A stretch of DNA of 64,000 bases from Promethearchaeota archaeon (GCA_048939995.1 JBHLOY010000001.1:160001-224000), one strand, 5' to 3'. Shown: positions 4,197 through 9,084, counted from the stretch's first letter. Translations and numbers: made by a program. Notes: a model not told the origin generated them from the sequence alone.

Positions 4197-4655
4197 ATGT
4201 CCTATGATTTTTTAATTAAAGATTTAACACTGAAAACATCTCAAAAAGCTATTGGTACAGATAAAGGATTAGCTAAAATAGGAGATGGTATTGTAAATTT
4301 TGTATATTCGGTAGCAAAGTCTATCTATTTAACAAAAAAGAGTTTCAACAATAAAATAATTAGAACAGGTAAAAAAGTTAATAAAACTATTTTATCTAAT
4401 GCATTAAAAAACGCTAACTTAAAGAGCTGCGCAAAAACTAGAGCTGATGCTCATGATCTGGCAGACACAGCTGAAGCAATAATAGCATATATCTGGTTAT
4501 CAGGAAAAATGAATATGGATTCTATGATCAGGATTATATTTGAAAATCTTTCCGGTAATCTTGATATTAGAACAGAAGAAATCCGAAATGCTACTATAGC
4601 ATTCACACAATTATTAGAATCAATAAAAATTTATCTCCCTACCTCTAAAGTATGA
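4197..4655 (+). CDS. Archaeal RNase III-like domain protein
   Basis: DKGLAKIGDGIVNFVYSVA and ADTAEAIIAYIW match the archaeal RNase III-family signature; usual neighbour of rpoL/DUF99. Confidence 0.8.
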   Translation: MSYDFLIKDLTLKTSQKAIGTDKGLAKIGDGIVNFVYSVAKSIYLTKKSFNNKIIRTGKKVNKTILSNALKNANLKSCAKTRADAHDLADTAEAIIAYIWLSGKMNMDSMIRIIFENLSGNLDIRTEEIRNATIAFTQLLESIKIYLPTSKV

Positions 4656-5212
4656 AACAATTTCCAATTACAATAGGATTTGATGATGCTAAATTTGAGT
4701 TGAAATCAAAAGTAAAAACAACTCAATTAATCGGAGTAGTCTGTCAAGGTATGAGGCTAGTTAGAGTATTAATAAGTCCAATTTCTATTGATGGAGATGA
4801 TGCAACTATTAGTTTAATCAAACTTGCTAAACAAAATGAAAAACATATTCAATATGTTCTTACGGATACAATAACTTTTGGAGGATTTAATATTATAGAT
4901 TTAGAAGAGATTTATACTAAGCTAAAAAAACCGATTATAGCAGTTACAGAACGAGAAGTAGATCTTGATTCGGTTAAAGTAGCTTTAATCAATAAATTTC
5001 CTAAAACCTATAAGAAAAAGCTCCAATATATTATAAATGCTGGAGAATTATTTGAAACTACAGTAGAAACTGCGGGTGGTCGTTCAAAAATATATCTTCA
5101 CTTAAAGGGAGTAATATTTGATGAAGCTAAAGATTTACTAAAAAGATTATGCATCGATTCAAAAATGCCAGAACCTGTAAGAATTGCTCATCTAATTGGG
5201 AAGGCTTTTTAA
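4652..5212 (+). CDS. DUF99 / endonuclease V-like protein
   Basis: IGFDDA, DGDDAT, ITFGGFNIID, PEPVRIAHLI. Confidence 0.88.
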   Translation: MKQFPITIGFDDAKFELKSKVKTTQLIGVVCQGMRLVRVLISPISIDGDDATISLIKLAKQNEKHIQYVLTDTITFGGFNIIDLEEIYTKLKKPIIAVTEREVDLDSVKVALINKFPKTYKKKLQYIINAGELFETTVETAGGRSKIYLHLKGVIFDEAKDLLKRLCIDSKMPEPVRIAHLIGKAF

Positions 5213-5685
5213 AACGTAGCGACTTCATATTCTAATATTTCCTTCATTCGCTCTCGTAACTCAGGATGAATAGCAGTCATCCCATAGGTTTTTAACCCGC
5301 CTAACCTCCTTTGCACCTCTTGTGCACTCAATGCTCCTTGGAGATCCTGTTTATTTGCTATAGCAATGATTTTAGTGCCCAAATTCCGCTCAAATCTATC
5401 ATAGATCTCCTTAGTCTTCTTCACACTTTCCTCTGTAGAATCACACACCAGCACAGCTAATCCCGCACCCCGTAGGAAGTCTTTCCACATAAATTTGAAC
5501 CGCTGTTGACCCCCTAAATCCCAAATACTTACTTTCTTTCCATTTAAAATAGAATCCTCAACTTCTAATCCCACAGTTGGAACCCGCTTCTTTGGAACTT
5601 CCCTCCCTTGTAATAAAGACAGTAAAGAAGTTTTCCCTACTCCACCTTCCCCCACAATACAAATCTTTGATTTAGTTGTGAAAAC
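5209..5685 (-). CDS. Small GTPase, Arf/Arl-like; true start uncertain, upstream of GTG 5655
   Basis: KICIVGEGGVGKT, PTVG, WDLGGQ, ANKQDL. The beta1 strand KICI lies upstream of the first canonical start; TAG at 5701-5703. Confidence 0.88.
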   Translation of the reverse strand, partial: VFTTKSKICIVGEGGVGKTSLLSLLQGREVPKKRVPTVGLEVEDSILNGKKVSIWDLGGQQRFKFMWKDFLRGAGLAVLVCDSTEESVKKTKEIYDRFERNLGTKIIAIANKQDLQGALSAQEVQRRLGGLKTYGMTAIHPELRERMKEILEYEVATF

Positions 5686-6068: not shown

Positions 6069-7406
6069 TTATGCTCCAGTTTCAATATCCTTGACTATGC
6101 CAACTGCAATAGTCCTGCCCATATCACGAACGGCGAATCTCCCCATCTCCGCAAACTGGTCATAGCGCTCCAAGCACATCTTTTTTATAGGCTGTAGTTT
6201 AATGACAGCAGATTCATTTCGCTTTATGAACTTCGGTGCATCTTCTATGACCGCTCCTGTTTTCTGATCAAGCTTTTTGCTGATTTCTATGAACTTTGCT
6301 GCGACCTGAGCAGTATGAGCGTGAATTACAGGGGTATATCCTTGAGCAATAGCGGTTGGGTGCCAAATAACTATAATTTGCCCTGTCCAATTGCCATTTG
6401 GGAATATGACGTTAGGGGGATTGTTTGGGTGACCAAGGCAATCTCCTCTCCCTACATCCTTCATTTCAAGGCCTCTAATACTGAATCCAACGTTATCACC
6501 TGGTTCAGCTTGAGGAATTTCCTCATGATGCATTTCAATGCTTCGGATTTCACCTTGAAATCCAGTTGGCATAATGATAATTTTGTCACCTTTCTTAAGT
6601 ACACCAGTTTCGACTCTACCAACTGGAACAACACCGGTTCCTTTAATTCTATACGCATCCTGGATTGGGAGTCGTAATGCCTTATCAGTTGGTTTTGGTG
6701 GTATCTCAAATTGATCGATTGCGTCAATGAGGGTTGGACCATCATACCAAGGCAATTTATCGCTTTTCTTTGAAAGATTTTGCATCATCAACCCTGAGAC
6801 AGGTACAAATGGAATCTTTTTAACAGGGAATCCTATATTTTTTAAGAGATCTGAAACTGCTTCTTTGCATTCATTAAAGCGTGCTTCACTATAGTCATAG
6901 TTATCTGCTTTATTGATTGCTACAACTAATTGTTTTATTCCAAGAGTTTGAGCTAAATAAGCATGTTCTCGTGTTTGACCATTGGCAGCAATTCCAACTT
7001 CCATTTCACCTTTTTTACCAGATACAACTAAAATAGCAGCATCAGCTTGTGAAGCACCCGTGATCATATTCTTTACGAAATCAGCATGACCAGGAGCATC
7101 AATTATTGTGAAATATTTGTTTGGAGTTTCAAATTTTCTGAAAGCTAAATCGATAGTAATACCTCTTTGGCGTTCCTCTTTTAATTTGTCAAATACGAAT
7201 GCATAGGACCAAGAATCTCGATCGAACTCTTTTGCTAATTTTTCTAATTCGCGAGCTTCTCTATCGGTGACTGCTCCTGTCTCTATTAACAGGGCACCCA
7301 TCATTGTGGACTATATGGGATTAAACCTAAGTGGTTATCTAATCATTCCATGATCGATGTGCCCAATAATAACTAGATTCAGATGTTGTTTTTGTTTTGA
7401 AGACAT
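6069..7406 (-). CDS. tuf: Translation elongation factor EF-1alpha; two exons (7346-7406 and 6069-7312), 434 aa after removing the 33-nt intron
   Basis: Exon 1 MSSKQKQHLNLVIIGHIDHG; spliced junction gives GHIDHGKST; then ERQRGITID, DAPGH, GQTREH, NKAD, GRFAVRDM. Confidence 0.95.
7313..7345 (-). other. 33-nt bulge-helix-bulge (BHB) intron in the EF-1alpha mRNA
   Basis: Intron UGAUUAGAUAACCACUUAGGUUUAAUCCCAUAU. Central helix AUGG/CCAU, bulges AA^U and AU^A, intron stem GAUUA/UAAUC. Excision yields GGA AAG UCC (G-K-S). Confidence 0.9.
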
Positions 7407-7460
7407 TTCTTTATCAACTTAATTTTTTTTTAGATAATATAATATTAATTGAATATAGAT

Positions 7461-7470
7461 TTTATTTAAA
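7461..7470 (-). promoter_or_regulatory. Putative TATA box of the EF-1alpha gene
   Basis: TTTAAATAAA on the minus strand about 55 nt upstream of ATG 7406; weak evidence in an AT-rich background. Confidence 0.35.
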
Positions 7471-7549
7471 GATATTAGTTCTAAGTCTTGCTCAATATTT
7501 ATTTTTTACTATAAAAATAAGGTAATTTTGTATATAATAAGAAGGTAAG

Positions 7550-9084
7550 CTAATTTTTTTCATTTTTTAACTGAATTATTTCAGATAAAGTTTTATTACA
7601 ACTTTTTTTCTTAATTGGAGCTGAAATATTCCATTCATTCATTAATTTACGTAAGGTCTTAATATTTACCTCCAAACCATTAGCTACGTCTTGGACAGAA
7701 AATCTATCAACCAAAAATTGAAGATTATTTTCATTTTCTACTTTTGACTTTAGAAGATCATAAGCCTCACGATAAGTATCAAAATATCTCCTTTTCCTTT
7801 CAAGGGAATCGACACAATTTTCAGTACTACTTATCATTTCATTGAATAAAACCGCTCCTAATGAGAGTTCCCATACTATCCTTCGAGATTTGATAATGTC
7901 ATCCGGTGATGGTTCATTTTTAACATAGACTTTGTATTTAATGTCAAAGACATCCTTTATTTTATCTAAAAACCATTTTTCCGATGAACAAATCTTTGTA
8001 GTCCCCTCTATCCTATCGGCATCATATACACCTAATAACCAAGATAAAGCATGTTCTCTATTATTTTCATTAAGATTCAATACAAAGTCGGGAATTTCCT
8101 TAAATTTAATTCTTTCTAAATCTTTAAATAAAGGTTTACATGTAAATTGTACATTTATAAGTGTGAATTTCTTTTTCTCTCCATGATAATCAATTATTCT
8201 TTCTCTTTCATTCAATTTATTTTTAGGGTTTAATCCTAAGACTTCACAAAATTTTAATAAATGAATTTTGTCCTAAATAAAAAGCCTAACCAATATGCTT
8301 TATCTTTTGTATTTATTCTTTTAAAATAATCATATTTTAGCTTTGGTTCCTTTACTTGCCACTGCTGATGTGAATAATCTTTTAAATTAGGATTACATTT
8401 TTGATACTTCTCAACTATTTTTGAACTTATTCCAATCTCTTTATTAGAGGATAATAAATTCTCTTCTAACATCTTGATTTGTTTCTTAGAAAACTTATAA
8501 TCAGGATTGTATCCAGAATTATTCGGATTTTTCAGTCTCCCAAAAATATGTTTTAAGAATTCCTTCCCTCTACCAAAATATTTAATACTTACATATTCTC
8601 GAAGTTTTGTAATAGAAAGTGAATCTAGATTTGGATCTACTTGTACCACTGCTTTAAGTAAGTCATTGATGAAATTATCTGTGGGGTATTTTCCAATTTT
8701 TTTTGGCTGACTTTCAAGATCATAATTAATATTGCTAATTTTTACACCCCTTTTGATAGGTACATCTCTATTTTCCTTTCTTTTCGATATCGTATTTTTA
8801 TCTTCAGAATCTCCCATCCAATGAATCGAATCACATTTCTTTACTTTTTTCTCTTGAGAGCCTTTATTTATCCAATCTATCTTATCAAACTTAGTTGTAT
8901 TTTTCTCATTAGGAGCATTATTTACCCAATCTATCTTATCAAATTTACTCTCTTTGTCTACTCTCTCTCTTTTTTTATTATCTTTCAATATTTTTTCTTC
9001 ATTATCATCATTATAATCAACCACAATATCATTATCTGTTTTATTTTTCTTAACAGAGTTATTGTTCTTTGTTTTAAAACTCAT
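7550..9084 (-). pseudogene. Split/degenerate LAGLIDADG-type homing endonuclease gene with N-terminal low-complexity/repeat region and C-terminal HTH-like tail
   Basis: ORF 8254-9084 ends in DYFKRINTKDKAYWLGFLF (motif 1 lacking ADG). Another frame resumes with DKIHLLKFCEVLG and continues into ORF 7550-8215, which has WLLGVYDADR (motif 2 with R for G). Confidence 0.75.
8815..8950 (-). repeat. 54-nt (18-aa) tandem coding repeat, about 2.5-3 copies
   Basis: KFDKIDWVN / KFDKIDWIN / KCDSIHW; ccaatctatcttatcaaa recurs at 54-nt spacing. Confidence 0.8.

What the first reader, a model, noticed from the sequence alone, without database searches (positions are those of the whole stretch)
7280..7406. 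Canonical bulge-helix-bulge intron splitting the P-loop lysine codon of EF-1alpha: candidate spliced mRNA intron in an Asgard archaeon
Seen: the gene starts at ATG 7406 (MSSKQKQHLNLVIIGHIDHG), then reads MIR*PLRFNPI* before resuming STMMGAL. Removing exactly 33 nt (7345-7313) joins GGA A to AG TCC, giving GGA AAG TCC and the invariant GHIDHGKST. The RNA folds as a strict BHB: 4-bp central helix AUGG/CCAU, 3-nt bulges AA^U and AU^A, intron stem GAUUA/UAAUC plus AACC/GGUU closing an ACUUA loop, and exon-exon pairing that includes GGGCAC/GUGCCC. The canonical cut sites (after the 2nd nt of each bulge) coincide exactly with the boundaries needed to restore Lys. Established: archaeal EndA cleaves BHB motifs and RtcB ligates; such introns are common in tRNA/rRNA, and the well-known mRNA case is crenarchaeal cbf5. 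Inference: EF-1alpha synthesis here depends on the tRNA splicing machinery, which could couple tRNA maturation capacity to the factor that delivers tRNA, and resembles non-spliceosomal HAC1/XBP1-type splicing in eukaryotes. Automatic annotation would call a truncated protein with no P-loop.
Basis: partly seen in the sequence, partly recalled or inferred. Interest (0 to 1): 0.97.

Follow-up and report, generated by a model that had tools for sequence, protein, structure and literature searches.

The report
tRNA-type mini-intron splits Asgard EF-1alpha
The only gene for the essential translation factor EF-1alpha in this Asgard (Loki-type) archaeon is broken by a 33-base insert shaped like a tRNA intron, so the protein can almost certainly be made only after the mRNA is cut and rejoined; the papers I could search report this for the coding part of only one archaeal gene (cbf5).

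Summary
EF-1alpha (minus strand, ATG 7406) is interrupted by 33 nt (7345-7313) carrying two in-frame stops. Removing them joins GGA A|AG TCC and restores GHIDHGKST.

The canonical cut sites fall exactly on the coding junction. Only the exon-exon helix is weak.

- **Single copy:** the gene is the only EF-1alpha in a 98%-complete genome and is under strong purifying selection.
- **Relatives:** genomes of the same family carry 29-33-nt inserts at six EF-1alpha sites. Most lengths are not multiples of three. Each obeys the same bulge-helix-bulge (BHB) rule, and the intron helix covaries.
- **Enzymes and other genes:** the genome encodes two EndA paralogs and one RtcB. Same-geometry introns sit in metG, purA, fwdA and a CoA-transferase gene.
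- **Missing evidence:** the one RNA contig found does not cover the junction, so splicing itself is not shown.

The papers I could search report coding-sequence BHB introns only for crenarchaeal cbf5. This scan had already noted the same EF-1alpha intron in another genome (e1-3239926).

The parts
7346..7406 (-). EF-1alpha exon 1: ATG 7406 to the first base (A7346) of the split Lys codon. It encodes MSSKQKQHLNLVIIGHIDHG plus A of AAG.
   Evidence: aligned to intronless orthologs L004/L005
7313..7345 (-). 33-nt BHB intron (UGAUUAGAUAACCACUUAGGUUUAAUCCCAUAU) with in-frame UAA and UAG
   Evidence: An identical or near-identical insert occurs in independent assemblies: L123 33/33; L006, L008, L127 31/33.
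6069..7312 (-). EF-1alpha exon 2: AG of the Lys codon, then STMMGAL... to the stop codon
   Evidence: GTP_EFTU, D2, D3 domains; TIGR00483 EF-1_alpha, 566.8 bits, profile positions 24-423 only
7348..7351 (-). Central helix H, 5' strand AUGG (exon 1; His-Gly codons CAU GG)
   Evidence: invariant in 10/10 site-61 introns
7315..7318 (-). Central helix H, 3' strand CCAU (intron)
7345..7347 (-). 5' bulge A A^U; the cut after the second base is the 5' splice site 7346|7345
7312..7314 (-). 3' bulge A U^A; the cut after the second base is the 3' splice site 7313|7312
7319..7344 (-). Intron hairpin h': GAUUA (7344-7340) with UAAUC (7323-7319), AACC (7336-7333) with GGUU (7327-7324), loop ACUUA (7332-7328)
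   Evidence: fold; 4 of the 5 pairs next to the bulge show compensatory changes among 10 sequences
7463..7470 (-). TTTAAATA, a possible archaeal TATA box 57-64 nt upstream of the ATG (inference from reading only)
   Evidence: sequence; not tested

Best explanation
The 33 nt at 7345-7313 are an archaeal bulge-helix-bulge (BHB) intron inside the EF-1alpha coding sequence.

In the pre-mRNA, the exon bases AUGG (His-Gly codons) pair with CCAU near the 3' end of the intron. A 3-nt bulge follows this 4-bp helix on each strand, and an intron hairpin stacks on it. The inferred steps are as follows. The heteromeric (alpha-beta)2 splicing endonuclease EndA cuts after the second base of each bulge. RtcB then joins the 2',3'-cyclic phosphate and 5'-OH ends, giving GGA-AAG-UCC, and releases a 33-nt (probably circular) intron. 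Only the spliced mRNA encodes the P-loop GHIDHGKS, so only it encodes a working EF-1alpha. Unspliced mRNA yields a 23-aa stub.

What is shown: the sequence, the geometry, single-copy status, purifying selection, homologous and non-homologous introns in relatives, covariation, and the presence of the enzymes. What is inferred: the cleavage and ligation themselves.

The intron is best seen as one of a small population of tolerated, possibly mobile, micro-introns in an intron-rich Lokiarchaeia-type family. It is unlikely to be a dedicated regulator.
For: 1. **Exact junction.** One register only restores GHIDHGKST, and it coincides with the canonical BHB cut sites.

2. **No backup gene.** G000 is 98% complete and has one EF-1alpha. 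The other EF-Tu-family genes are SelB-like and aIF2-gamma.

3. **Not a pseudogene.** Against the intronless sister L004 there are 141 synonymous and 13 nonsynonymous codon differences.

4. **Six sites in relatives.** Among 123 family genomes with the gene, at least 14 carry inserts at six sites.
   - After CDS nt 36: 30 nt.
   - After nt 48: 31 nt. A 30-nt insert at the same site occurs in L130, an NCBI assembly found via the protein database.
   - After nt 54: 29 nt.
   - After nt 61: 31, 32 or 33 nt, in 9 genomes of 3 genera.
   - After nt 294: 30 nt.
   - After about nt 1259: 30 nt.

   Lengths of 29, 31 and 32 nt would frameshift an essential gene. Every insert has [4-nt H][2 nt]^ at both ends in a register that restores the protein. 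The central helix is 4/4 paired in all but L130, which has 3/4. The chance of 4/4 at one given register is 2.5%.

5. **Covariation at site 61.** Across 10 distinct sequences, 87% of cells are paired against 29-43% when partners are slid. Four of the 5 inner pairs have double compensatory changes. The covariation score is 0.227 against 0.080 for shuffles (0/500 as high).

6. **Intron conservation.** Own versus G029: 31/33 identical, although third codon positions differ at 42% (P = 5e-6).

7. **Enzymes.** There are two EndA paralogs, both above the TIGR00324 cut-off, and one RtcB. Asgard EndA is reported as (alpha-beta)2 with the broad-specificity L1 loop (PMC5829648).

8. **Other genes.** My own genome scan finds same-geometry introns restoring conserved motifs in metG (32 nt), purA (30), fwdA (30) and a CoA-transferase gene (31).

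9. **Independent assemblies.** The insert is held by JGI, ENA and NCBI assemblies.

10. **Not another kind of element.** There is no Rfam family match, no flanking repeats and no other copy in the genome.
Against: - No RNA evidence was obtained for or against removal.
- The exon-exon helix h beside the 3' bulge is weak: one C-G pair, kept in 6/10 sequences. The motif is therefore a relaxed (HBh'-like) BHB rather than the strict hBHBh'. Cleavage then depends on a broad-specificity EndA whose substrate range has not been measured for this lineage.
- Folding energy alone is unremarkable (z -0.5 to -1.6), and in the 96-nt context the minimum free energy fold is a competing structure.
Confidence: 0.88

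Rival explanations
1. Regulatory checkpoint: the intron is kept so that EF-1alpha output depends on the capacity of the tRNA-splicing machinery.
For: The intron sequence is more conserved than synonymous sites (31/33 against 42% third-position divergence). The genome's tRNA genes are heavily interrupted, so EndA/RtcB capacity matters: ARAGORN finds only 20 tRNAs, 12 with introns.
Against: The closest relatives (L004, L005; 97% and 96% protein identity) and L007, L009 lack the intron. At least 14 of 123 family genomes were seen to have any EF-1alpha intron, and at six different sites. Similar introns sit in metabolic genes. High conservation is equally explained by structural constraint or by recent lateral transfer.
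Confidence: 0.07
2. Decaying or non-functional gene, or an assembly or binning artefact: the insert is a lesion, not an intron.
For: The unspliced reading frame is broken by TAA and TAG. The genome is a MAG with 5% contamination.
Against: - There is a single EF-1alpha in a 98%-complete genome.
- The ratio of 141 synonymous to 13 nonsynonymous codon changes shows ongoing purifying selection.
- The same insert occurs in independent assemblies from several projects.
- Inserts in relatives always restore the frame under the BHB rule.
Confidence: 0.02
3. Translational recoding: ribosomes bypass (hop over) or frameshift across the insert, as in phage T4 gene 60, without RNA splicing.
For: The codon before the insert is GGA, the take-off codon of T4 gene 60. 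A stop codon and a hairpin follow within the insert.
Against: - The Lys codon is split A|AG, and no matching GGA landing codon precedes exon 2. A hop therefore cannot produce GK-S.
- Inserts at the other five sites follow different codons with no take-off/landing pairs.
- The precise BHB register and the helix covariation are unexplained by bypassing.
Confidence: 0.02

Closest known systems
BHB intron in the cbf5 (pseudouridine synthase) pre-mRNA of Crenarchaeota (Watanabe 2002; Yoshinari 2006; Yokobori 2009, as cited in PMC5829648 and PMC7714728)
   Same: A small intron inside a protein-coding sequence. The BHB motif is built half from exon and half from intron. It is linked to a hetero-oligomeric EndA and shows presence/absence polymorphism among related species.
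   Different: - Different host gene (EF-1alpha) and lineage (Asgard, Lokiarchaeia-type family).
- Several insertion sites within one gene across relatives.
- Several other genes of the same genome are affected.
- Splicing is not yet shown experimentally here.
[quoted passage not shown]
   Same: The same motif geometry: a 4-bp helix and two 3-nt bulges, with the cut after the second bulge base. The same presumed enzymes. The same lineage-level richness in introns.
   Different: The substrate is an mRNA coding region, not a structured RNA. The outer helix cannot be supplied by a tRNA stem and is weak here.
BHB intron in the 5' UTR of Haloferax volcanii HVO_1309 mRNA (PMC7714728)
   Same: An EndA-processed BHB in an mRNA.
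   Different: That intron lies in the untranslated leader and does not interrupt codons.
HAC1/XBP1 unconventional mRNA splicing in eukaryotes
   Same: Non-spliceosomal removal of a small mRNA intron by an endonuclease. Joining is by RtcB for XBP1 in animals. The protein's reading frame depends on the splicing.
   Different: The endonuclease is IRE1, not the tRNA-splicing endonuclease, and it recognises different stem-loops. That splicing is a regulated stress response, whereas no regulation is indicated here. This is an analogy only.

Membership tests
Archaeal bulge-helix-bulge (BHB) intron | 4-bp central helix flanked by two 3-nt bulges on opposite strands | tested here: met
   AUGG/CCAU with bulges AAU and AUA. 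The helix is invariant in 10/10 homologous introns.
Archaeal bulge-helix-bulge (BHB) intron | Symmetric cut sites within the bulges (after the second base) that yield a functional joined product | tested here: met
   The cuts at 7346|7345 and 7313|7312 give GGA AAG UCC, that is GHIDHGKST, and this is the only register that does so. The same rule restores the protein at all six sites in relatives.
Archaeal bulge-helix-bulge (BHB) intron | Flanking helices: inner h' (intron) and outer h (exon-exon) | tested here: inconclusive
   h' is present and covaries: 82% of cells paired, and 4/5 pairs compensatory. h is a single C-G pair kept in 6/10 sequences, followed by mismatches. This makes a relaxed, HBh'-like form.
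Archaeal bulge-helix-bulge (BHB) intron | Host encodes a splicing endonuclease and the RtcB ligase | tested here: met
   Two EndA paralogs of 201 and 205 aa score above the TIGR00324 cut-off, and there is one RtcB.
Archaeal bulge-helix-bulge (BHB) intron | The intron is absent from the mature RNA | tested here: inconclusive
   The only RNA contig (run X20) covers 6416-6566, not the junction. The spliced-junction pattern was not found in JGI metagenome contigs.
cbf5-type pre-mRNA intron of Crenarchaeota | Located in cbf5 of Crenarchaeota | tested here: not met
   The host gene is EF-1alpha (TIGR00483), and relatives are Asgard MAGs. It works like the cbf5 intron but is not a member of that orthologous group.
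Self-splicing group I / group II introns | A ribozyme core of hundreds of bases, recognisable by Rfam models | tested here: not met
   The insert is 33 nt, and there is no Rfam match at E <= 1 in 7150-7550.
Transposon or MITE insertion | Terminal inverted repeats, target-site duplication, multiple genomic copies | tested here: not met
   No direct or inverted repeats of 8 nt or more were found. blastn finds only the locus itself in G000.

The most novel reading that the evidence does not exclude
BHB micro-introns in this Lokiarchaeia-type family are a mobile population that colonises coding sequences wherever the exon can supply half of the motif, and that moves laterally between species.

The hints are these. 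The EF-1alpha intron is 31-33/33 identical between species whose synonymous sites are about 42% diverged. Intron-bearing alleles of own and G029 share the flanking codons GGA-AAG-UCC, which their intronless sisters lack. Presence is patchy on the gene tree.

If true, this would be a living prokaryotic system of intron gain and loss in protein genes, in the closest relatives of eukaryotes.
Probability: 0.3. Interest if true: 0.9.

Novelty: new member of a known kind. Interest (0 to 1): 0.8.

Why it matters
Papers from 2019-2020 state that the only coding-sequence BHB intron reported in archaea is in cbf5 (PMC7714728, PMC6379350). Later papers that I searched describe Asgard introns only in tRNA genes.

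Here one of the most highly expressed, essential genes of an Asgard archaeon depends on the tRNA-splicing enzymes. Related genomes show gain and loss of such introns at six sites in the same gene, and at least four other genes of the same genome are split in the same way.

- **Biology:** mRNA splicing by EndA/RtcB appears to be a routine part of gene expression in relatives of the eukaryotic ancestor. That raises the question of how splicing is coordinated with translation.
- **Evolution:** the system offers a tractable case for studying intron gain and loss.
- **Annotation:** about 20 of the 120 best database hits are 409-413-aa EF-1alpha entries truncated at the downstream ATG and lacking the P-loop. 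Such entries distort marker-gene sets and phylogenies.

Tried and rejected
- **RNA support.** The single read-laying run placed only a 151-nt, 100%-identical RNA contig (run X20) at 6416-6566. That is no information on the junction. A DNA contig of run X7 that skips the insert carries 11 and 4 mismatches in its two pieces and GGTAAATCG-type flanks, so it is an intronless relative's allele, not a spliced form.
- **Spliced-junction pattern.** An exact-pattern scan of JGI metagenome contigs for the spliced junction found nothing.
- **Protein database.** The search found no 434-aa protein 100% identical to this gene that could have come from a spliced transcript.
- **Genome-wide count of mRNA introns.** 484,247 BHB-like candidates passed to an ORF-fusion test gave no excess over frame-shifted decoys (51 loci against 43 and 43). 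Adjacent genes swamp the signal. The number per genome is therefore small, of the order of ten, and only motif-verified cases are claimed. dnaG, flagged by a first-stage note, was not recovered by my motif filter.
- **Folding energy as evidence.** Rejected: z-scores are not significant.
- **Distal GGGCAC/GUGCCC pairing as part of the motif.** Rejected: the same exon bases occur in intronless L004, and intron-bearing L006 has GGACAT/GGTGCT there.
- **The 'TAA' flagged inside G051's EF-1alpha.** This is just its natural stop codon.
- **Low-scoring EF-1alpha matches in genus g39.** These are genes broken at contig ends, not introns seen.
- **Literature.** Eight full-text searches found no report of BHB introns in Asgard protein-coding genes.

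Full report
**What is in the sequence.**

On the minus strand the EF-1alpha gene starts at ATG 7406 and reads MSSKQKQHLNLVIIGHIDHG. It then runs GGA A|TG ATT AGA TAA ... ATA T|AG TCC ACA ATG ATG GGT. The interrupting stretch is exactly 7345..7313 (33 nt). It contains in-frame TAA and TAG. Removing it gives GGA AAG TCC, the invariant P-loop GHIDHGKST. No shifted register gives the same product.

ORF listing shows what an annotator would see: a 23-aa stub (7335-7406) and a 411-aa ORF (6069-7304) beginning at MMGAL. That ORF matches the EF-1alpha equivalog model TIGR00483 above its cut-off, but only from profile position 24 onward.

**The fold.**

- AUGG (7351-7348) pairs with CCAU (7318-7315).
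- The 5' bulge is A A^U (7347-7345) and the 3' bulge is A U^A (7314-7312).
- The intron hairpin is GAUUA/UAAUC plus AACC/GGUU around ACUUA.

The geometry is the canonical one, as described by Marck & Grosjean 2003 (cited in the papers read). On each strand the 4-nt helix strand is followed by a 3-nt bulge that is cut after its second base. In a tRNA this is the 37/38 site.

Two qualifications apply. First, folding energy is not significant (z -0.5; -1.6 in 96 nt, where a competing fold wins). Second, the exon-exon helix next to the 3' bulge is a single C-G pair. The distal GGGCAC/GUGCCC pairing exists, but the same exon bases are also present in the intronless L004, while intron-bearing L006 has GGACAT and GGTGCT there. 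It is therefore not part of a conserved motif. The element is a BHB with a weak outer helix (HBh'-like).

**Is it more than chance?**

In this genome a random (position, length 29-33) pair shows a fully paired central helix in 2.5% of cases. It shows a central helix plus an adjacent inner helix in 0.13%. Here only one register is permitted by the protein.

**The gene is needed and alive.**

The assembly (38 contigs, 98% complete) has one EF-1alpha. The two other EF-Tu-family hits are a SelB-like protein and aIF2-gamma. Against its intronless sister (L004, 97% protein identity) the gene shows 141 synonymous and 13 nonsynonymous codon differences. That rules out a decaying copy.

The same insert occurs in independent assemblies. 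It is identical in a JGI contig (L123). It is 31/33 identical in G029 (NCBI MAG YT2_053), G018 and an ENA scaffold (L127).

**Relatives.**

I searched 135 genomes of the family; 123 have the gene. I aligned or read the 5' regions. At least 14 genomes carry an insert, at six different sites.

| Site (after CDS nt) | Genome(s) | Length (nt) | Central helix H |
|---|---|---|---|
| 36 | G106 | 30 | CUUG/CAAG |
| 48 | G015; also NCBI assembly L130 | 31; 30 | GGAC/GUUC; 3/4 pairs in L130 |
| 54 | G080 | 29 | AUUG/CAAU |
| 61 | G000, G029, G018, G036, G033, G101, G141, G094, G157 (three genera) | 31-33 | AUGG/CCAU |
| 294 | G103 | 30 | GCAG/UUGU |
| about 1259 | G112 | 30 | GGGU/ACCU |

For three of these inserts (G106, G080, G112) the multiple alignment had misplaced the boundaries. 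The BHB rule, [H 4 nt][2 nt]^ at both ends, picked a register that restores the conserved protein (and reading).

Lengths of 29, 31 and 32 nt would frameshift the gene. Two 32-nt introns (G141, G094) had been hidden because the out-of-frame upstream ORF happens to be open. Outside this family I saw no interruption downstream of residue 24 in the matches listed from a 300-genome sample of the phylum.

In the protein database, about 20 of the 120 best hits are 409-413-aa forms truncated at MMGAL, from many metagenomes. The contigs I fetched for eight of them carry site-61 introns, plus one site-48 intron.

**Covariation.**

Ten distinct site-61 introns were aligned (A2) and scored against the proposed structure (a six-sequence version is).

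- 87% of cells are paired, against 29-43% when 3' partners are slid.
- The central helix is invariant.
- Four of the five inner-helix pairs show double compensatory changes (A-U to C-G, U-A to G-C or C-G or A-U).
- The covariation score is 0.227, against 0.080 +/- 0.028 in shuffles (0/500 as high).

All intron-bearing alleles use CAU for the His codon, which H requires. Intronless relatives often use CAC.

**Machinery and context.**

- The genome encodes two EndA paralogs (201 and 205 aa, both above the TIGR00324 cut-off) and one RtcB. This fits the (alpha-beta)2 enzyme with the broad-specificity L1 loop reported for Asgard archaea (PMC5829648).
- ARAGORN finds only 20 tRNAs, 12 with introns. 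This fits the heavily interrupted tRNA genes described for Asgard lineages (PMC11291895; bioRxiv 10.64898/2026.10.13.758758).
- My own BHB scan of the whole genome, filtered by motif restoration, recovers same-geometry introns in four other genes: metG (32 nt, restoring ...PYVNAIPHLGN), purA (30 nt, WGDEGKGK), fwdA (30 nt) and a CoA-transferase gene (31 nt). A PurM-like gene is a probable further case.
- A decoy control shows no bulk excess, so such introns number of the order of ten per genome.
- The EF-1alpha intron has no other copy in the genome, no flanking repeats and no Rfam match.

**Mechanism and rivals.**

The best explanation (0.88) is EndA cleavage in the two bulges followed by RtcB ligation, giving the only mRNA from which a P-loop-containing EF-1alpha can be translated.

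- **Pseudogene or artefact:** excluded by single copy, selection and independent assemblies.
- **Ribosomal bypassing:** excluded. The Lys codon is split A|AG with no landing codon, and the other five sites have unrelated flanking codons.
not excluded but unsupported. The two closest relatives lack the intron, it is patchy on the gene tree, and unrelated genes carry the same kind of intron.

An open and more interesting possibility is mobility. The intron is 31/33 identical between G000 and G029 although third codon positions differ at 42% (P = 5e-6). These two intron-bearing alleles also share the flanking codons GGA-AAG-UCC, which their intronless sisters lack. Structural constraint or lateral transfer with co-conversion could each explain this.

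**What is missing.**

Direct RNA evidence is missing. The one RNA contig found (run X20, 151 nt, 100% identical) lies at 6416-6566. A scan for the spliced junction in JGI contigs found nothing.

**Novelty.**

Papers of 2019-2020 state that cbf5 of Crenarchaeota is the only coding-sequence example, plus one 5'-UTR case in Haloferax (PMC7714728; PMC6379350). My eight searches found no report for Asgard protein genes.

Within this scan, earlier notes describe the same EF-1alpha intron in another genome (e1-3239926) and similar introns in other Asgard genes. Some of those notes claim RNA contigs lacking the intron. I did not check those RNA claims.

Noticed in passing
G000 contigs C6 (+, cut after 82171, 32 nt), C7 (-, 29224, 30 nt), C17 (-, 151032, 30 nt), C38 (+, 64706, 31 nt); positions are on the strand scanned: Same-geometry BHB introns whose removal restores conserved motifs in metG, purA (WGDEGKGK), fwdA and a CoA-transferase gene. 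A probable further one lies in a PurM-like gene (C23 -, 38174, 30 nt).
   Followed up: partly
G000 whole genome: ARAGORN finds only 20 tRNA genes, 12 with introns, in a 98%-complete genome. Most tRNA genes are probably too interrupted to be recognised.
   Followed up: no
window 5209-5655 (-): An Arf/Roc/Ras-type small GTPase gene lies directly downstream of EF-1alpha. The same neighbour follows EF-1alpha in JGI contig L123.
   Followed up: no
window 7550-8215 (-) and 8254-9084 (-): Two ORFs (221 and 276 aa) upstream of EF-1alpha have no Pfam family at E <= 0.001.
   Followed up: no
L131-L137 (G203, G214, G232, G238; family f17, genus g39): In all four genomes examined, EF-1alpha is broken at contig ends near residues 98-135. 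Something there (a repeat, an intein or a larger insert) repeatedly breaks assembly.
   Followed up: no
L148:31-82 (G141), L149:31-82 (G094): These 32-nt site-61 introns are masked because the out-of-frame reading of exon 1 is stop-free. The gene looks like a 450-aa ORF, so ORF length alone misses such introns.
   Followed up: yes
L130:301-1536 and upstream (GCA_030605085.1): A 30-nt insert at the His codon (site 48) has a central helix with one C.A mismatch (GGCC/GACC). It is a relaxed variant.
   Followed up: partly
window 4652-5212 (+): An Endonuclease dU (PF01949) gene lies next to the GTPase gene.
   Followed up: no
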